Source: Escherichia phage APECc02
DNA: 64,000 nucleotides
Sequence record: NC_041869.1
Reading direction: 5' to 3' (one strand)
In this document: one piece after another, positions 1-6,672 of the stretch
Position numbering within the stretch: the first letter of the stretch is position 1
Layout: every line of letters begins with the position of its first letter
Translations under genes and position numbers: made by a program
Notes under the pieces: generated by a model
Told to the model about the DNA's origin: nothing
Database searches by the model: none
What the model saw: the letters and a program-made list of their open reading frames with translations, nothing else

Positions 1-561
1 CTCCCAGTTAAAATTGATAACTGTGTTGGAGCACCCTACAAGGATAACCATATCATTGCTCGTAAGAGAAGTCAACAGGTCATACATGTCTGTATACTTC
101 GGAGCTACTTCTCCGAAGAACACCACATTAGGCTTAACCCAGGTATACTTTCCTGCGTCTACCTCAGAGTATCCAATGTCCTTAATGACGTCACTTCCTT
201 CATCGTCCTCATAGACTATTTCTGGCAAATACCCGTGGACATGTAAAATATCTTCATGTTTTACACCAGCACGCTCCAGCAAATCATCTACATTGGTGGT
301 AAGGTTGATCACACGACCAGACCAGCGGGAATACCACTCAGCGATCCGAAGATGTGCAAGGTTAGGCTCAACACTGCCTAAAGCTACACGACGTGCATTG
401 TAAAAGTCATGCACCTTATAGTAGTTCTTGGCAAAGGTGTGGATGTTGCACACCTCATCGATGCTGAAATTCTCCCACATTGCAGTGCTACCAGATCGGA
501 AAGTGGGAATACCAGATTCAGCGCTCAAACCAGCACCGGAGATAATAATCAGTCGTCGCAT
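1..561 (-). CDS. Sir2-family NAD-dependent deacylase/NADase-like protein (C-terminus cut by window edge)
   Basis: Reverse ORF running off window start; ATG at 561..559 with GAGGA upstream; translation MRRLIIISGAGLSAESGIPTFR...TTNVDDLLERAG...HVHGYL...VVFFGE...ILVGCSNTV matches the canonical Sir2 motifs (GAGxSxxSGIPxFR, TQNIDxLhxxAG, HG, VVFFGE); no Zn-ribbon cysteines. Confidence 0.7.
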   Translation of the reverse strand, partial: MRRLIIISGAGLSAESGIPTFRSGSTAMWENFSIDEVCNIHTFAKNYYKVHDFYNARRVALGSVEPNLAHLRIAEWYSRWSGRVINLTTNVDDLLERAGVKHEDILHVHGYLPEIVYEDDEGSDVIKDIGYSEVDAGKYTWVKPNVVFFGEVAPKYTDMYDLLTSLTSNDMVILVGCSNTVINFNWE

Positions 562-569
562 AAGTGTCC

Positions 570-920
570 TCAGTAGATGTTTTGTTTAATCTCTATTCCA
601 AACTTTTTAAACGAGTCAGCTGCAAGCATGAATTTACGAGCCGCTGATGGGTTAGAAGTATGCACGAAAATCTTCACGTTGTCAACTACAGGAGGCTTAC
701 CAAATACAAATTTTTCCTCTAGGATGCAGAAGCAATCGTATCCTTCAAAAATTTCTCCCAAGTCGCTGTCAAAATGCCACTCAGAAACTCGTCTATAAAG
801 CTTTCTCTTGTCATTGATGAAATCCATAAACTCAGAAGAGTTCTTCAGCCAAAGAGCATCTTGGAGCCCGTAATTTGACGGATCTCTCAAGTCATCCAGC
901 CACACAATCAACTTCTTCAT
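570..920 (-). CDS. hypothetical protein (116 aa), translationally coupled between RNA ligase and Sir2 genes
   Basis: ORF from track; start overlaps ligase stop by 4 nt; stop 8 nt before Sir2 start; no motif recognised. Confidence 0.5.
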   Translation of the reverse strand: MKKLIVWLDDLRDPSNYGLQDALWLKNSSEFMDFINDKRKLYRRVSEWHFDSDLGEIFEGYDCFCILEEKFVFGKPPVVDNVKIFVHTSNPSAARKFMLAADSFKKFGIEIKQNIY

Positions 921-1852
921 TGCATATAGTCCTCGTTGTGGAAATAGTAGTCAAGTATCTCGCGGCGTTCCTGCTCAAGGAGACAGTTCCACACATCTTC
1001 TGTGTAATTGCTACGAATGAAGTTTACCATGCCGTAAAACTCTTCGTCAACACGTTTAAAGATATCCTCATCCCAAATCTTCCAAGCTTTACCTCTCATT
1101 ACGGCCTTCCGTGCCAAATAGTACGGAGACTTGATCTTCAGCTGCAGATCATAAGGGTAGTAAGGCTTACGAATCATATACCCTTCACCTCTTGTTTCTG
1201 CAGCTAATTCTTTTGCATAACTGAACGGAATTTCACGCACAGTGTGAGGACGTTTTGCACCAAGGTATTTGGCAATCCCATCTAAAGCTGCCTCTGGTAG
1301 CATTATTCCAGAATCATTATATCTGCAACCTATCAAATATGCGCCATGATCTTCCTGAACAATATGCGGATCTGAAGGGTGACAAATTTCAAACATGAAT
1401 GTCATGTTTTCATTGCCCATAACCTTCTTGATAAGATCTAAATTACCACATTGCTCCTGGATGGTTTCCTTTGCGAGGTTACAATATGGAGAATCAAGAG
1501 ATCCGGTTGTTGAGAACAATAGTTCACCTTTATGAGAGGATACCACACCAAGGAATCCGTTCTTTTTCTCTACCGCCGTCACAAGCTTATTGTCAGGCAG
1601 GTTGGTGGAGTTTTCTCCCAAGTTAAACACTTTTGTGAAGGGCCATGCCACAACATTTCCTTCATTACCGACAACAATGCCTCGGCACTCCAGTAAACGA
1701 GGGGACAAATGCCATAAATTGTTGTAAAATACTTTTCTGGCATATTTATAGATCTTTAACCCAAGATCCGGGTAATATCTACTGGTTACAAGACCTTTGT
1801 CAACTAGGTCGTCTGCATTAAAATACTTCATCATACGTTCCTCATTTGTCAT
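917..1852 (-). CDS. ATP-dependent RNA ligase-like nucleotidyltransferase
   Basis: 311 aa ORF; covalent nucleotidyltransferase motifs in correct order: motif I KxNG (EKKNGF), motif IV EGxxxK (EGYMIRK), motif V LKIK; adjacent to kinase and phosphatase genes. Confidence 0.6.
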   Translation of the reverse strand: MTNEERMMKYFNADDLVDKGLVTSRYYPDLGLKIYKYARKVFYNNLWHLSPRLLECRGIVVGNEGNVVAWPFTKVFNLGENSTNLPDNKLVTAVEKKNGFLGVVSSHKGELLFSTTGSLDSPYCNLAKETIQEQCGNLDLIKKVMGNENMTFMFEICHPSDPHIVQEDHGAYLIGCRYNDSGIMLPEAALDGIAKYLGAKRPHTVREIPFSYAKELAAETRGEGYMIRKPYYPYDLQLKIKSPYYLARKAVMRGKAWKIWDEDIFKRVDEEFYGMVNFIRSNYTEDVWNCLLEQERREILDYYFHNEDYMQ

Positions 1853-1895
1853 TTTGTCAGTCTATCCTGCCACACAAATAACCTAGTGTCAACAC

Positions 1896-1924
1896 TTGAA
1901 ATTAACAAAACAGTTAGGTATACT
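1896..1924 (+). promoter_or_regulatory. sigma70-like promoter TTGAAA-17-TATACT upstream of kinase gene
   Basis: -35 at 1896-1901, -10 at 1919-1924, in divergent intergenic region. Confidence 0.4.
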
Positions 1925-1952
1925 ATCGTTGAAATTAAAACGGAGTATTACT

Positions 1953-2363
1953 ATGTCTAAAATGCTATATATCGTGCGTGGTCTACCAGGGTCTGGCAAA
2001 TCAACACTGGCAAATGCGCTATCTTTAGAAGGTCTGTATCCACATTTTGAGAACGACATGTTCTGGTACGACGATGATGGAAATTACAACTGGGATGCAA
2101 GTAAAGTAACACTTGCAGCAAAATGGTGCAAAGATAACGTAGAAGATATGATGCGTATGGGATACGACCGTATCGTGGTAAGTAATACGTTTACAAAAGA
2201 AAAATATGTGCAAGAATATATTGACATGGCGATCAGTCATGGGTATAGTTATACCGTGATCGTGGTTGAAAACCGCCATGGTAATAAAAGCATTCATGAT
2301 GTTCCAGACAGGGTTGTGGATCGTATGGAACGCCAGCTTAAAAATTGCATTAAACTTAAATGA
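1953..2363 (+). CDS. P-loop polynucleotide kinase-like protein
   Basis: ATG at 1953 with GGAG upstream; Walker A GLPGSGKST near N-terminus; small AAA_33/Pnk-kinase-like size (136 aa). Confidence 0.6.
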   Translation: MSKMLYIVRGLPGSGKSTLANALSLEGLYPHFENDMFWYDDDGNYNWDASKVTLAAKWCKDNVEDMMRMGYDRIVVSNTFTKEKYVQEYIDMAISHGYSYTVIVVENRHGNKSIHDVPDRVVDRMERQLKNCIKLK

Positions 2364-2370
2364 GGAATGT

Positions 2371-2925
2371 ATGAAATACTTTGTAACAAGCGACACACAC
2401 TTTCTCCACCAGCGGGTCATGGAGTTCGACTCATGTCAAAAACACAGATCTCAGTATGATCACAATCTTGACAGTATGAATGCGGGAATCATCACCGAGT
2501 GGAACTCTGTTGTGTCACCTGCAGACACTGTGTTCCACCTGGGAGATATTGCGTGCACTAATGATAAGAATATCAACAAATTGCTCCCAGATGTTCTAAA
2601 TATGTTGAACGGACATATTATTCTTGTTCGTGGTAACCATGACACAAGGACGACTGTCAGAATTATGAAAGAGTTCGGTCATGAGGTTGTAGATTATTAC
2701 GAGCTTCGCCACAACAAGAATTTGATCTGTATGAGCCATTACCAGTTTGCAAAGTGGAACAGAAAGCCTCACGGATCAGTCCAACTGTTCGGTCATGCTC
2801 ACGGAACCACACAGCAGTTGTTTGGCAGGCAGTTTGATGTCGGTTGGGATGTGTGGGGGAGACTCTTACCATTAGAAGAGGCATACCGTATTGCAATGAG
2901 TCTTGCTATTGACAGCGGGGAGTAA
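2371..2925 (+). CDS. calcineurin-like metallophosphoesterase (putative 2',3'-phosphatase)
   Basis: ATG 2371 with GAGG upstream; motifs DTHF, GDI, GNHD typical of metallophosphoesterases. Confidence 0.75.
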   Translation: MKYFVTSDTHFLHQRVMEFDSCQKHRSQYDHNLDSMNAGIITEWNSVVSPADTVFHLGDIACTNDKNINKLLPDVLNMLNGHIILVRGNHDTRTTVRIMKEFGHEVVDYYELRHNKNLICMSHYQFAKWNRKPHGSVQLFGHAHGTTQQLFGRQFDVGWDVWGRLLPLEEAYRIAMSLAIDSGE

Positions 2926-2972
2926 TCCCTGCTATTTTAAAGAAAATTGCCACACAAGGAGAATCAGGAGAT

Positions 2973-3323
2973 ATGAAAGATGGGGATAAGCTGCTATATC
3001 TTAAAGTCCCCCTTGAAATACTGTCTATGTCAAAAGTTTTGAATGACACAACTGGGGAGGTTGTTGTTCTTGACTTGTATGACAAGATCGTATACTGCTA
3101 CCTGCACAACTGGTATAAGCTTGGAGGAAGTTCACGCTTCACACCCAGCACAAGGAAAATTGCAGCAGATGTTGGGATAAAGAAAACAAAAGCAGCAGCG
3201 TGCGTTAAAACTTTAGAATGTGCAGGAGTGGTTGAAATATCCACACAAGGGAGAGGTAAAAGATGCACATTTTCCAAAGTTTTGCCACCAGAAGAGGTTA
3301 TTCGAATGTCAACAACTGGTTAG
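2973..3323 (+). CDS. hypothetical protein, possible DNA-binding (helix-turn-helix-like segment)
   Basis: 116 aa ORF immediately upstream of iteron array; segment TPSTRKIAADVGIKKTKAAACVKTLECAGVVE resembles HTH. Confidence 0.4.
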   Translation: MKDGDKLLYLKVPLEILSMSKVLNDTTGEVVVLDLYDKIVYCYLHNWYKLGGSSRFTPSTRKIAADVGIKKTKAAACVKTLECAGVVEISTQGRGKRCTFSKVLPPEEVIRMSTTG

Positions 3324-3397
3324 ACCAGTAAAAACTTAAATATCTGTACTATAAGGATTCGTATGTTTTATGTTCGCTCTGGAACAGAGGTTAGTAA

Positions 3398-3480
3398 CTG
3401 TCCGTGATACGGACACTACTGTCCGTCACGCGGACACATCTGCCCGTAATACGGACACTAACTGTCCGTGATACGGACAC
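3398..3480. repeat. array of four 17-bp palindromic sites TGTCCGT-N3-ACGGACA at 21-bp spacing (iterons/operators)
   Basis: Copies at 3398-3416, 3419-3437, 3440-3458 (one arm degenerate CTGCCCGT), 3462-3480; followed by an AT-rich tract 3481-3600. Confidence 0.75.
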
Positions 3481-5859: not shown

Positions 5860-5934
5860 GCCCTGTTAGCTTAGTGGATAAAGCAGCGGCCTTCTAAGCC
5901 GTTGACACTGGTTCGAGTCCAGTACGGGGTGCCA
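5860..5934 (+). tRNA. tRNA-Arg (anticodon TCT)
   Basis: Manual cloverleaf fold: acceptor GCCCTGT/ACGGGGT, anticodon loop CTTCTAA, T-loop TTCGAGT, encoded CCA. Confidence 0.8.
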
Positions 5935-5938
5935 AATT

Positions 5939-6025
5939 GGGGAGTTATCCCGTAGAGGTAGCGGTGTAGACTGTAAATCTATTGTCATTGCGACTCGGGT
6001 GGTTCGACTCCACCACTCCCCACCA
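5939..6025 (+). tRNA. tRNA-Tyr (anticodon GTA), long variable arm
   Basis: Acceptor GGGGAGT/ACTCCCC, anticodon loop CTGTAAA, T-loop TTCGACT, encoded CCA. Confidence 0.8.
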
Positions 6026-6139
6026 AATTTACATTTTTAAATGCATAAATCATACAGATAATGGCATTGATATTTATCGTCGTTTATACTAGTCACTAAC
6101 TGCTCGAAAATCAGTGTCATTATCAGTATTGTTTATAAA

Positions 6140-6230
6140 TGAGGGTAGGGAGCAATGGTGCTCAAGCGGTCTTGAAAACCGTCCCGTTGAGGATGACTCG
6201 ATGATGGTTCGATTCCATTACCCTCAGCCA
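6140..6230 (+). tRNA. tRNA-Ser (anticodon TGA), long variable arm
   Basis: Acceptor TGAGGGT/ACCCTCA, anticodon loop CTTGAAA, T-loop TTCGATT, encoded CCA. Confidence 0.7.
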
Positions 6231-6328
6231 TATTGTTGACCTTGTAATTAAGCGAAAGCCGGAAGCAGAACCGGATTATCAAATGTTACAGTCGTCATCG
6301 CCGACTAGCAACATGGTCAACATACTGA

Positions 6329-6427
6329 GCTAGGTAAGCCCTTTGGCAAGGGCGAGGATTTTTAATCCTGAAAATAGACGAGGTAGTCGTTGAATACATA
6401 GGTGGTTCGATTCCATCACCTAGCACC
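6329..6427 (+). tRNA. atypical tRNA-like gene (possible tRNA-Lys TTT variant or pseudogene)
   Basis: Perfect acceptor GCTAGGT/ACCTAGC, D-arm GCCC-TTTGGCAA-GGGC, T-arm GGTGG-TTCGATT-CCATC, but anticodon arm is AGGA-TTTTTAA-TCCT (4-bp stem) or 5-bp stem with 5-nt loop, then about 30-nt extra arm; only CC encoded at 3' end. Confidence 0.35.
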
Positions 6428-6432
6428 TTTTT

Positions 6433-6508
6433 GCTGATGTAGCACAATTGGTAGTGCAATTGATTTGTAATCAATAGGTTGCAGGTTCGAGTCCTGCTAT
6501 CAGCACCA
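6433..6508 (+). tRNA. tRNA-Thr (anticodon TGT)
   Basis: Acceptor GCTGATG/TATCAGC, anticodon loop TTTGTAA, T-loop TTCGAGT, encoded CCA. Confidence 0.8.
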
Positions 6509-6509
6509 T

Positions 6510-6584
6510 GGCCCTGTAGCTGGAAGGTTCAAGCAAGCGACTCATAATCGCCAGACGGTGGTTCAATTCCACCCAGGGCCACCA
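6510..6584 (+). tRNA. tRNA-Met/Ile2 (anticodon CAT)
   Basis: Acceptor GGCCCTG/CAGGGCC, anticodon loop CTCATAA, T-loop TTCAATT, encoded CCA. Confidence 0.75.
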
Positions 6585-6595
6585 AATAATAAATA

Positions 6596-6672
6596 CTCCG
6601 CGTAGCTCAGCTTGGTAGAGCGCCTGATTTGGGATCAGGAGGTCGAGTGTTCGAATCACTCCGTGGAGACCA
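6596..6672 (+). tRNA. tRNA-Pro (anticodon TGG)
   Basis: Acceptor CTCCGCG/CGTGGAG, D-stem GCTC/GAGC, anticodon loop TTTGGGA, T-loop TTCGAAT, encoded CCA. Confidence 0.75.

What the first reader, a model, noticed from the sequence alone, without database searches (positions are those of the whole stretch)
917..2925. Split RNA-repair cassette: RNA ligase divergent from P-loop kinase plus metallophosphoesterase
Seen in sequence: the 311-aa minus-strand ORF carries nucleotidyltransferase motifs I (KKNG), IV (EGYMIRK) and V (LKIK). Divergently transcribed are a Walker-A kinase (GLPGSGKST) and a DTHF/GDI/GNHD metallophosphoesterase. Established knowledge: kinase plus 2',3'-phosphatase plus ligase is the end-healing and sealing chemistry of T4 Pnk/Rnl1 and bacterial Pnkp/Hen1, used to repair tRNAs cut by anticodon nucleases. 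Inference: this phage encodes a three-gene tRNA repair system, and the kinase-MPP arrangement looks Pnkp-type rather than T4-type.
Basis: partly seen in the sequence, partly recalled or inferred. Interest (0 to 1): 0.7.

Follow-up and report, generated by a model that had tools for sequence, protein, structure and literature searches.

The report
Phage RNA end-healing and sealing cassette

Summary
The three ORFs exist and match RNA_lig_T4_1, AAA_33 and Metallophos. All catalytic motifs are invariant in their families.

- The ligase belongs to the T4 Rnl1 / fungal Trl1 clade.
- Across 80 diverse phage loci with this ligase, the kinase lies nearby in 74 and the phosphoesterase in 62. They are almost always co-directional and adjacent.
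- In 12 loci the kinase and ligase are fused in one ORF.

Three corrections apply.
- The cassette here is larger than three genes. A cREC gene overlaps the ligase stop by 4 nt, and a sirtuin follows, cut by the window start.
- The phosphoesterase is of the uncharacterised Aquifex aq_1665 type, not the lambda-phosphatase/Pnkp type. There is no Hen1, so "Pnkp-type" holds only at superfamily level.
- The divergent "split" is a Vequintavirus-specific rearrangement.

The window is about 97% identical to more than 100 sequenced rV5-like phages that carry these annotations. Iyer et al. 2022 described exactly this neighbourhood for phage V5. Transposon data for a 97%-identical phage call the ligase, kinase, phosphoesterase and sirtuin non-essential on E. 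coli K-12 (cREC intermediate). The cassette is known in silico and untested biochemically.

The parts
1..561 (-). N-terminal 187 aa of a sirtuin (SIRT5/CobB-like); the gene is cut by the window start and is 253 aa in relatives
   Evidence: Pfam SIR2 E=1.1e-27. GAGLSAESGIPTFR lies at 496-537 and the catalytic HVHG at 232-243. The full-length orthologue in OR062943.1 matches SIRT5 at E=2e-20. It lies directly downstream of cREC in all rV5-like records.
   Evidence: Pfam cREC_REC PF20274 E=1.7e-13, 51.4 bits against a cut-off of 27. phrog_1479 E=1e-32. WLDDLRDP, HFDSDLGE and VHTSNP are conserved in 11 homologues. Its ATG overlaps the ligase TGA (ATGA, 4 nt), indicating translational coupling.
917..1852 (-). 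Short Rnl1-family ATP-dependent RNA ligase (maximal ORF 311 aa; likely start ATG 1834 or 1831)
   Evidence: Pfam RNA_lig_T4_1 E=6.4e-15. The family profile hits T4 Rnl1 2C5U at E=3e-14 over its residues 29-249. The AF2 model has pLDDT 91.4. Top Foldseek hits are the Trl1 ligase domain, T4 Rnl1 and Rnl3 at E about 1e-11. Motifs: ECRG 1679-1690, PFTKVFN 1622-1642, KKNG 1556-1567, FEICH 1379-1393, EGYMIRK 1166-1186, LKIKS 1127-1141.
1853..1952 (.). Divergent intergenic region between the ligase and the kinase; contains a sigma-70-like element on the + strand at 1896-1924
   Evidence: TTGAAA-17-TATACT scores 10/12, followed by GGAG 8 nt before ATG 1953. This is a consensus match only; function is not shown. 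GC skew changes sign near position 2000.
1953..2363 (+). Minimal stand-alone polynucleotide-kinase-like P-loop kinase, 136 aa
2371..2925 (+). Metallophosphoesterase of the Aquifex aq_1665 type, 184 aa
   Evidence: Pfam Metallophos_2 and Metallophos match; phrog_547 E=5e-52. All five metal-binding motifs are invariant. The family profile hits 1XM7 at E=1.2e-21 and gives no lambda-phosphatase or Pnkp hit at E<=1. The start lies 7 nt after the kinase stop and is preceded by GAGGA.

Best explanation
The region is an RNA end-healing and end-sealing cassette of an rV5-like (Vequintavirus) phage.

1. The small P-loop kinase phosphorylates the 5'-OH.
2. The metallophosphoesterase, helped or bypassed by the cREC protein, opens and removes the cyclic or 3' phosphate.
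3. The Rnl1-type ligase is adenylylated on Lys96, activates the 5'-phosphate and seals the break.

Ligase, kinase and phosphoesterase form the conserved core. cREC, the sirtuin and (outside the window) a MazG-like gene are an add-on restricted to Vequintavirinae-like phages. The add-on may give an NAD+-dependent route for a residual 2'-phosphate.

Shown here: protein family and fold assignments, conservation of catalytic residues, gene linkage and fusion, and (from published data) that the ligase, kinase, phosphoesterase and sirtuin are non-essential on E. coli K-12, with cREC intermediate.

Inferred: every enzymatic activity, RNA (especially tRNA) as the substrate, and the anti-defence role.
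For: - Ligase: Rnl1 motifs are invariant and align to the corresponding T4 Rnl1 motifs (ECRG, PxxKxFN, KxxG, FE, EGY, hKxK). The model's best structural matches are all RNA ligases, at E about 1e-11 (Trl1 ligase domain, T4 Rnl1, Rnl3); the next tier (E about 1e-6 to 1e-5) is Rnl5 and T4 Rnl2, and DNA ligases first appear at E about 1e-5.
- The genome of a close relative already has a separate dNMP kinase.
- Phosphoesterase: the full metal-binding motif set is invariant.
- Linkage: among 80 IMG/VR loci whose ligase is 35-89% identical, the kinase lies within 8 kb in 74 and the phosphoesterase in 62. The median kinase-ligase gap is 81 bp. Gene order varies (MPP-Rnl-Kin or Kin-Rnl-MPP) but the genes stay co-directional.
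- Fusion: 12 loci encode a single kinase-ligase ORF.
- cREC overlaps the ligase stop by 4 nt.
- In relatives with about 48% identical ligases the order is Rnl-cREC-Kin-Sir2 on one strand.
- HIDEN-SEQ data for Bas54/MaxBurger (96.8% identical here) call the ligase, kinase, phosphoesterase and sirtuin non-essential, with cREC intermediate. This fits an accessory, conditionally useful function.
- Iyer et al. 2022 (PMC9503650, section 3.7.3) reached the same reading for phage V5.
Against: - No activity has been measured for any protein of this family in the literature I could search.
- The kinase lacks an Arg at the position three residues after the general base (T4 Pnk R38 in my recollection; R of RDDFR in the Pnkp1 alignment). 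Here it is F/W.
- Its SNT motif differs from the xDxTN motif of characterised polynucleotide kinases.
- The nearest solved relative of the phosphoesterase is a structural-genomics protein of unknown function.
- The ligase has only about 65 residues after motif V. By my recollection T4 Rnl1 has about 120 there, forming its tRNA-specificity domain, so tRNA specificity cannot be transferred.
- In the one clinical-isolate comparison visible in the HIDEN-SEQ supplement, none of the genes was depleted (log2FC +0.1 to +0.4).
Confidence: 0.65

Rival explanations
1. Yeast-like, NAD+-dependent route as the main pathway in this phage. cREC opens the cyclic phosphate to a 3'-OH/2'-phosphate. The kinase phosphorylates the 5' end. 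The ligase seals and leaves a 2'-phosphate at the junction. The sirtuin then removes it by transfer to NAD+, as Tpt1/KptA does. The MazG-like and phosphoesterase proteins clear ADP-ribose-derived by-products. This is the proposal of Iyer et al. 2022.
For: - The best Foldseek hit of the ligase model is the fungal Trl1 ligase domain (9QW7, E=3.5e-12), level with T4 Rnl1.
- The order Rnl-cREC-Kin-Sir2 is contiguous in relatives.
- The sirtuin keeps its NAD+ motif and catalytic His.
- The proposal is published.
- The ligase-kinase module also sits next to NAD+ salvage genes in PaP1 and JSF12.
Against: - Only 11 of 80 ligase loci have a sirtuin or cREC, whereas 62 have the phosphoesterase. The ancestral core therefore works without NAD+ chemistry.
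- No sirtuin is known to act as an RNA 2'-phosphotransferase.
- Whether the ligase requires a 2'-phosphate cannot be read from the sequence.
Confidence: 0.15
2. DNA rather than RNA end repair. The kinase and phosphoesterase heal 5'-OH/3'-phosphate DNA nicks for the phage ATP-dependent DNA ligase encoded nearby. The RNA-ligase-like protein has some other role.
For: - A full-length ATP-dependent DNA ligase lies within 8 kb in 27 of 80 loci and 2.5 kb from the ligase in rV5-like genomes.
- The phosphoesterase has a weak match to the ligase-associated DNA-damage endonuclease PdeM (TIGR04123, E=1.9e-4, far below its cut-off).
- T4 Pnkp acts on DNA as well as RNA (established knowledge).
Against: - The DNA ligase is never closer than 829 bp, whereas the kinase-RNA ligase median gap is 81 bp.
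- The fusions join the kinase to the RNA ligase, not to the DNA ligase.
- The ligase fold matches RNA ligases, not DNA ligases.
Confidence: 0.08
3. Small-molecule rather than RNA chemistry. The kinase, phosphoesterase, cREC, sirtuin and MazG-like proteins process nucleotides, NAD+/ADP-ribose derivatives or cyclic-nucleotide immune signals, so the cluster is counter-signalling or nucleotide metabolism.
For: - Iyer et al. call the kinase a 'nucleotide kinase' and consider cREC a possible processor of cyclic ADPr phosphate.
- NAD+ salvage genes are neighbours in PaP1 and JSF12.
- Metallophosphoesterases include cyclic-nucleotide phosphodiesterases; weak hits to GpdQ and Rv0805 appear.
Against: - The RNA ligase is the anchor gene and is fused to the kinase in 12 loci.
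- The kinase fold is nearest to polynucleotide and tRNA kinases by a wide margin.
- A separate dNMP kinase exists in the genome of a close relative.
Confidence: 0.08
4. The ligase is chiefly a tail-fibre attachment catalyst, as T4 gp63 is and as the PHROG and many GenBank labels say. Its neighbours are functionally unrelated.
For: The label of phrog_562 and many record annotations say so. The rightward arm that begins with the kinase runs into structural genes.
Against: - In Bas54 the ligase tolerates insertions at 56 of 60 TA sites and is called non-essential. In the same study T4 and Bas37 rnlA are essential.
- The label is inherited from T4 by homology of the catalytic domain only.
- The tight linkage and fusion with a kinase are unexplained by this reading.
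Confidence: 0.03

Closest known systems
Phage T4 Pnkp (PseT) plus Rnl1 (gp63) tRNA repair pathway countering the PrrC anticodon nuclease
   Same: - A phage-encoded 5' kinase, a 2',3' phosphatase function and an Rnl1-family ligase.
- The ligase shares motifs I, III, IV and V and the Rnl1-specific ECRG and PxxKxFN elements.
   Different: - The phosphatase is a binuclear metallophosphoesterase, not the DxDxT (HAD) domain fused to T4 Pnk.
- The kinase is a 136-aa stand-alone protein without an Arg three residues after the general base (T4 R38 by my recollection).
- The ligase is about 305 aa with a helical tail of about 65 aa, against a C-terminal domain of about 120 aa in T4 by my recollection. 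It scores 39.6 bits against the 242-bit TIGR02308 equivalog cut-off.
- cREC and sirtuin partners have no T4 counterpart.
- The ligase is dispensable on K-12, unlike T4 rnlA.
Bacterial Pnkp/Hen1 RNA repair system (Clostridium thermocellum Pnkp; Capnocytophaga Pnkp1-Rnl-Hen1)
   Same: - Kinase plus metallophosphoesterase plus ligase chemistry.
- Pnkp1 is the fourth-best hit of the kinase profile and the best that is an RNA-repair kinase (E=8e-7).
   Different: - Three separate genes rather than one polypeptide.
- The phosphoesterase is aq_1665-like (GDIACTN, GNHD), with no detectable similarity to the lambda-phosphatase-like Pnkp module.
- The ligase is Rnl1-type.
- No Hen1 methyltransferase occurs in the neighbourhood.
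Fungal/plant Trl1 plus Tpt1 tRNA splicing pathway
   Same: - Ligase, kinase and cyclic-phosphodiesterase functions act together.
- The Trl1 ligase domain is the top Foldseek hit of the ligase model.
- Stand-alone fungal RNA 5'-OH kinases (9D8A, 9DRZ) are among the best sequence-profile hits of the kinase (PMC11571804).
- An NAD+-using enzyme sits in the same cluster.
   Different: - There is no 2H cyclic phosphodiesterase; cREC and/or the metallophosphoesterase stand in its place.
- There is no Tpt1/KptA; a Zn-module-less sirtuin stands in its place.
- A 2'-phosphate requirement of the ligase is unknown.
Sirtuin-centred phage RNA-repair neighbourhood 'type 2' of Iyer, Burroughs, Anantharaman and Aravind 2022 (prototypes: Escherichia phage V5, Proteus phage Mydo)
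   Same: This is the same locus: sirtuin, T4-like tRNA ligase, cREC, kinase, MazG-like and calcineurin-like phosphoesterase.
   Different: - That paper centres on the sirtuin and calls the phosphoesterase 'occasional'.
- Centred on the ligase, the data here show the reverse. Kinase (74 of 80) and phosphoesterase (62 of 80) are the common partners, and sirtuin/cREC (11 of 80) are a lineage-specific add-on.
- In my ligase-centred sample, every locus carrying a full-length sirtuin also carries the phosphoesterase.

Membership tests
T4 Rnl1 family RNA ligase (Pfam RNA_lig_T4_1) | Covalent nucleotidyltransferase motifs I (KxxG with the Lys nucleophile), III, IV and V | tested here: met
   K96-x-N98-G99, F154-E155, E223-G224 and K239-x-K241 are invariant in 64 homologues. 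They align to the matching T4 Rnl1 motifs (tKEDG, FE, EGY, fKIK) in the profile alignment to 2C5U.
T4 Rnl1 family RNA ligase (Pfam RNA_lig_T4_1) | Rnl1-specific N-terminal elements (the Arg of ECRG; the Lys and Phe of PxxKxFN) | tested here: met
   R57 (ECRG) and K74/F76 (PFTKVFN) are invariant and align to the same T4 motifs.
T4 Rnl1 family RNA ligase (Pfam RNA_lig_T4_1) | Score above the curated family threshold | tested here: met
   Pfam gives 56 bits against a 28.3 gathering score. The NCBIfam equivalog TIGR02308 (T4 RnlA) is NOT reached, with 39.6 bits against 242.25. It is a family member, not an equivalog of T4 RnlA.
T4 Rnl1 family RNA ligase (Pfam RNA_lig_T4_1) | C-terminal helical domain of about 120 aa that confers tRNA specificity in T4 Rnl1 | tested here: not met
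   Only about 65 residues follow motif V. They are modelled as four helices (243-306). The profile alignment to T4 Rnl1 stops at its residue 249. The size and role of the T4 domain are from my own knowledge.
T4 Rnl1 family RNA ligase (Pfam RNA_lig_T4_1) | ATP-dependent sealing of 3'-OH/5'-phosphate RNA ends | not testable with these tools
   Needs enzyme assays.
Polynucleotide 5'-hydroxyl kinase (T4 Pnk / CthPnk clade) | P-loop GxxGxGK[ST] | tested here: met
   GLPGSGKST at residues 10-18. G15 and K16 are invariant.
Polynucleotide 5'-hydroxyl kinase (T4 Pnk / CthPnk clade) | General-base Asp about 20 residues after the P-loop lysine | tested here: met
   D35 is invariant in both alignments. 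It aligns to the first Asp of RDDFR in Pnkp1.
Polynucleotide 5'-hydroxyl kinase (T4 Pnk / CthPnk clade) | Arg three residues after the general base, which contacts the substrate phosphate (T4 R38 and Cth R41 by my recollection) | tested here: not met
   The position is W in this protein and F/Y/W in the family (consensus EADxYF). In the Pnkp1 alignment the Arg of RDDFR pairs with this aromatic residue.
Polynucleotide 5'-hydroxyl kinase (T4 Pnk / CthPnk clade) | Lid Arg contacting the NTP (T4 R126 by my recollection) | tested here: inconclusive
   R108 (ENRHG) is present here and conserved in at least 90% of sequences in A5. It is replaced in several ligase-linked homologues. Its equivalence to T4 R126 rests on my reading of the motif, not on a printed alignment.
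Polynucleotide 5'-hydroxyl kinase (T4 Pnk / CthPnk clade) | Fold closest to polynucleotide kinases rather than nucleotide kinases | tested here: met
Bacterial Pnkp/Hen1 system | One polypeptide with kinase, metallophosphoesterase and ligase modules | tested here: not met
   There are three separate ORFs on two strands. The only fusions seen among relatives are kinase-ligase.
Bacterial Pnkp/Hen1 system | Lambda-phosphatase-like phosphoesterase module (GDxxDRG, GNHE) | tested here: not met
   The motifs are LGDIACTN and GNHD. The family profile finds aq_1665 (E=1e-21) and no lambda phosphatase or Pnkp phosphatase chain at E<=1.
Bacterial Pnkp/Hen1 system | Hen1 2'-O-methyltransferase partner gene | tested here: not met
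   The neighbours are cREC, a sirtuin, an HTH protein and small ORFs. The annotated relatives show no methyltransferase next to the cassette. The only SAM-dependent methyltransferase annotated in OR062943.1 is about 25 kb away.
Calcineurin-like metallophosphoesterase superfamily | Five metal-binding motifs: DxH, GDxx, GNH[DE], H, GHxH | tested here: met
   D8-x-H10, G58-D59, G88-N89-H90, H123 and G141-H142-x-H144 are invariant in 24 homologues. Pfam Metallophos_2 gives 28.1 bits against 27 and Metallophos 26.9 against 21.5.
cREC (PF20274, cyclic-phosphate processing receiver domain) | Family HMM above threshold and receiver-like acidic active-site residues | tested here: met
   51.4 bits against a cut-off of 27. 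The DD of WLDDLRDP, the DxD of HFDSDLGE and TSNP are conserved. Catalytic activity has never been measured (PMC9503650).
Trl1/Tpt1-type (2'-phosphate) ligation pathway | Tpt1/KptA 2'-phosphotransferase and 2H cyclic phosphodiesterase | tested here: not met
   No such domains were found in the neighbouring ORFs scanned or in the annotation of relatives. A sirtuin and cREC occupy those places, and their equivalence is hypothetical.

The most novel reading that the evidence does not exclude
In Vequintavirus the cassette may run a complete, yeast-style tRNA healing-sealing pathway built from non-orthologous parts. cREC would act as the cyclic phosphodiesterase. A Zn-module-less sirtuin would act as an NAD+-dependent RNA 2'-phosphotransferase, an activity never shown for any sirtuin. 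The aq_1665-type metallophosphoesterase would be a new family of RNA 2',3'-end phosphatases. Together they would make these phages resistant to a broad set of tRNA-cleaving defences. The idea was put forward in silico by Iyer et al. 2022 and remains untested.
Probability: 0.15. Interest if true: 0.7.

Novelty: already known. Interest (0 to 1): 0.33.

Why it matters
T4 remains the only phage in which tRNA repair has been shown to defeat an anticodon nuclease. tRNA-targeting defences (PrrC, RloC, PARIS, retron-associated nucleases, Cas13) are now recognised as widespread.

The ligase-kinase-phosphoesterase module found here occurs in at least 663 sequenced phages of Escherichia, Pseudomonas, Vibrio, Klebsiella, Acinetobacter and Streptomyces. 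If it works as predicted, RNA repair is a common phage counter-defence.

It would also assign the first function to two uncharacterised enzyme families (aq_1665-type metallophosphoesterases and cREC) and possibly a new chemistry to a sirtuin.

The value lies in experiments, however. The existence of the cassette and its likely role are already annotated and published.

Tried and rejected
- Single-sequence searches of the ligase and kinase against PDB sequences found nothing useful. Family profiles were needed.
- I looked for any characterised relative of the phosphoesterase. Only Aquifex aq_1665, a structural-genomics protein, came up. A literature search on it was empty.
- I tested the 'Pnkp-type' idea and rejected it at family level (and the membership table).
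- I considered the PHROG label 'tail fiber attachment catalyst' and rejected it, because the gene is dispensable in Bas54.
- I considered linkage to the nearby DNA ligase. It is looser than the RNA-ligase linkage.
- The HTH gene downstream (2973-3323) is not part of the module, being absent from all 80 related loci.
- The MazG-like neighbour gives no Pfam hit at E<=0.01, so I rely on the record annotation and on Iyer et al. for its name.
- I could not read Burroughs and Aravind 2016 (PMC5062991), which is not held.
- Both structure-prediction jobs went to the ligase and the kinase, so the phosphoesterase and cREC were not modelled.
- I wondered whether the odd 99-nt tRNA carries an intron that would need a splicing ligase. 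Manual reading shows a normal anticodon loop and a long extra arm instead.


Full report
**What the window is.** The region 400-3400 is 95-99% identical to 102 phage records, and 116 of the 118 matching records cover at least 80% of the query. These are Escherichia phages of the genus Vequintavirus (rV5-like), including the BASEL phages RudolfGeigy and MaxBurger. Those records annotate the genes variously as RNA ligase, polynucleotide kinase or ATPase, phosphoesterase, 'cyclic-phosphate processing domain-containing protein' and Sir2.

**Check of the observation.**
- The 311-aa minus-strand ORF (917-1852) matches Pfam RNA_lig_T4_1 (E=6.4e-15, 56 bits against 28.3) and phrog_562 (E=4e-66).
- The plus-strand P-loop ORF matches AAA_33 (E=4.8e-10), phrog_2071 (E=7e-59) and the polynucleotide-kinase family phrog_505 (E=5e-10).
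- The next ORF matches Metallophos_2 and Metallophos, and phrog_547 (E=5e-52).
- The quoted motifs are at the expected residues and are invariant in homologue alignments.
- Likely starts, judged from Shine-Dalgarno sequences and homologue N-termini, are ATG 1834 or 1831 for the ligase, ATG 1953 for the kinase and ATG 2371 for the phosphoesterase.
- The kinase stop and the phosphoesterase start are 7 nt apart.

- Directly downstream of the ligase, with its ATG overlapping the ligase TGA, lies a 116-aa cREC protein (570-920, minus strand; PF20274, E=1.7e-13).
- Window 1-561 (minus strand) is the N-terminal 187 aa of a sirtuin (PF02146, E=1.1e-27), cut by the window edge.
- In complete relatives the leftward series continues with a MazG-like 'nucleotide pyrophosphohydrolase', two small ORFs and an ATP-dependent DNA ligase.
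- The ligase is thus the first gene of the long leftward arm (replication and nucleotide metabolism).
- The kinase is the first gene of the rightward arm, which runs through tRNA, lysis, packaging and structural genes.
- The GC skew changes sign at this point.
- The 100-nt spacer contains a sigma-70-like TTGAAA-17-TATACT on the plus strand. That is a consensus match only.

**The ligase.**
- A profile of 23 homologues hits T4 Rnl1 (2C5U, E=3e-14) over its nucleotidyltransferase domain.
- The elements ECRG, PxxKxFN, KxxG (K96), FE (E155), EGY (E223) and hKxK (K239, K241) all align, and all are invariant.
- An AlphaFold model built on 64 sequences (pLDDT 91.4) has as best Foldseek matches the fungal Trl1 ligase domain, T4 Rnl1 and archaeal Rnl3, all at E about 1e-11 and TM about 0.6. 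Rnl5 and T4 Rnl2 follow at E about 1e-6 to 1e-5, and DNA ligases first appear at about 1e-5.
- It is therefore an RNA ligase of the Rnl1/Trl1 clade, but not an equivalog of T4 RnlA (39.6 bits against a 242-bit cut-off).
- It ends about 65 residues after motif V in a small helical bundle. By my recollection, T4 Rnl1 has a domain of about 120 residues there that confers tRNA specificity.

**The kinase.**
- The family is very large: at least 7,988 homologues of about 130 aa.
- A profile of ligase-linked members hits the RNA-repair kinase Pnkp1 (8e-7), the tRNA-dependent kinase PSTK (2e-6), mammalian PNKP, T4 Pnk (1e-5), CthPnkp kinase (6e-5) and stand-alone fungal RNA 5'-OH kinases (9D8A, 9DRZ; PMC11571804).
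- The P-loop and the general-base Asp (D35) are invariant.
- The Arg three residues after that Asp in characterised enzymes is replaced by an aromatic residue, and the xDxTN motif is SNT. This is a distinct subfamily.
- The genome of a close relative also carries a separate dNMP kinase.

**The phosphoesterase.**
- All five binuclear-metal motifs are invariant.
- The family profile finds only Aquifex aq_1665 (1XM7, E=1.2e-21), a structural-genomics protein of unknown function, then weak hits to GpdQ-like and YfcE-like proteins.
- It finds no lambda phosphatase or Pnkp phosphatase.
- 'Pnkp-type' is therefore true only in the sense that the phosphatase is a metallophosphoesterase and not the HAD domain of T4 Pnkp.

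**Linkage across phages.**
- I fetched 80 IMG/VR loci that encode this ligase at 35-89% identity and searched their ORFs with the window proteins.
- The kinase is within 8 kb in 74 loci, with a median gap to the ligase of 81 bp. The phosphoesterase is present in 62.
- cREC is present in 11 loci, the sirtuin in 11 and the MazG-like gene in 13.
- Gene order varies (MPP-Rnl-Kin, Kin-Rnl-MPP or Kin-Rnl), but the genes are co-directional in 79 of 80 loci.
- Only the closest relative (L003, 89% identical) shares the divergent layout of the window. The 'split' is therefore a Vequintavirus-specific rearrangement.
- In 12 loci the kinase and ligase form one ORF. An example is L051 7527-8825, with AAA_33 at residues 16-115 and RNA_lig_T4_1 at 184-367.
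- In the 146-149-kb relatives the order is MPP...Rnl-cREC-Kin-Sir2-DNA ligase on one strand.
- In sequenced phages the ligase is found in 663 records: Escherichia 197, Pseudomonas 175, Vibrio 83, Streptomyces 56, Klebsiella 36 and others.
- Pseudomonas phage PaP1 and Vibrio phage JSF12 show the same ligase-kinase pair with a phosphoesterase nearby (in PaP1 about 0.9 kb upstream, across three small genes), and in both it lies next to NAD+ salvage genes.
- A full-length DNA ligase is within 8 kb in 27 of 80 loci but never closer than 829 bp.

**Published functional data.**
- The HIDEN-SEQ preprint (10.1101/2025.11.20.689424) mapped transposon tolerance in Bas54, which is MaxBurger and is 96.8% identical to the window here (H17).
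- Its Data S2 calls bas54_0206 (MazG-like), 0207 (sirtuin), 0209 (RNA ligase), 0210 (polynucleotide kinase) and 0211 (phosphoesterase) non-essential. It calls 0208 (cREC) and 0212 (HTH) intermediate.
- In the clinical-isolate comparison held in the supplement none is depleted.
- The same study finds T4 and Bas37 rnlA essential. The V5-type ligase is therefore not needed for virion assembly on K-12, and the 'tail fibre attachment' label is inherited, not earned.

**Most likely mechanism.**
- The cassette is an accessory RNA healing-and-sealing module.
- The kinase makes a 5'-phosphate. The phosphoesterase, and cREC where present, resolve the 2',3'-cyclic phosphate. The Rnl1-type ligase then seals.
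- Family and fold assignments, catalytic-residue conservation, linkage, fusion and dispensability are shown.
- All activities, the RNA substrate, tRNA in particular, and the counter-defence role are inferred.
- The sirtuin, cREC and MazG-like genes are a lineage-specific layer. Iyer et al. 2022 propose that the sirtuin acts like KptA/Tpt1 on a 2'-phosphate. My data neither support nor exclude that, but they show that the core works in most phages without it.

**Comparison with what is known, and novelty.**
- The cassette works like T4 Pnkp/Rnl1 and like Pnkp/Hen1 but is a member of neither. It combines a T4-type ligase, a Pnk-fold minimal kinase and a phosphoesterase from a different family.
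- It is not new. GenBank records carry these product names.
- cRec and its operonic linkage to RNA ligases were defined in Iyer et al. 2021 (PMC7824862).
- Iyer et al. 2022 (PMC9503650, section 3.7.3) name Escherichia phage V5 as a prototype of exactly this neighbourhood.
- I found no biochemical or genetic test of it.
- My one refinement is to the published picture. Seen from the ligase, the phosphoesterase is the rule and the sirtuin the exception, and kinase-ligase fusions exist.

**Verdict.** The finding is already known as a computational prediction. Interest is modest and lies in the untested biochemistry.

Noticed in passing
window 6329-6427 (+): A 99-nt tRNA-like gene that ARAGORN could not type. 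Read by hand it has an anticodon loop UU-UUU-AA (tRNA-Lys UUU; its orthologue in RudolfGeigy is annotated tRNA-Lys), a 6-bp D stem with a 4-nt loop, and an extra arm of about 25 nt with its own hairpin. By my recollection, tRNA-Lys(UUU) is the target of PrrC and of PARIS AriB. The gene lies 3.4 kb downstream of the kinase and phosphoesterase genes.
   Followed up: partly
window 5860-6672 (+): A cluster of seven tRNA genes: Arg-TCT, Tyr-GTA, Ser-TGA, the odd Lys-like one, Thr-TGT, Met/Ile-CAT and Pro-TGG. Its content differs between close relatives: 241Ecol014PP lists four tRNAs and RudolfGeigy six.
   Followed up: no
window 1-561 (-); full gene in L001 6401-7162: The phage sirtuin is SIRT5/CobB-like (E=2e-20) and keeps the NAD+ motif and the catalytic His. 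Between the His and the second Rossmann half it has no cysteine pairs, so the usual zinc module seems to be missing.
   Followed up: partly
L084 (Pseudomonas phage PaP1) and L086 (Vibrio phage JSF12): In distant phages the same ligase-kinase pair sits next to NAD+ salvage genes: ribose-phosphate pyrophosphokinase in both, and nicotinamide phosphoribosyltransferase in PaP1. JSF12 also has a NinI/lambda-type phosphatase directly upstream of the ligase. This is a recurring RNA-repair/NAD+ association that does not depend on the sirtuin.
   Followed up: no
window 2973-3323 (+): An HTH protein (phrog_12838 'replication initiation protein', E=8.5e-80; weak HTH_36/DUF6945) lies directly after the phosphoesterase. 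It is absent from all 80 related loci. Its Bas54 orthologue (bas54_0212) is called intermediate and has low transposon read counts (about 13 against about 200 for its neighbours).
   Followed up: partly
L038-L056 group, e.g. L051 7527-8825: A clade of metagenomic phages encodes a 432-aa kinase-RNA ligase fusion and has no aq_1665-type phosphoesterase within 8 kb. I did not identify what supplies the 3'-end healing there. The neighbouring ORFs gave no Pfam hits apart from a DNA ligase, a weak Pyr_excise match and DUF3307.
   Followed up: partly
OR062943.1 17239-20168 (outside the window; L083): In this relative the anaerobic ribonucleotide reductase gene nrdD is annotated in three pieces, with an HNH homing endonuclease lying between the first two. 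Several other HNH genes lie in the leftward arm.
   Followed up: no
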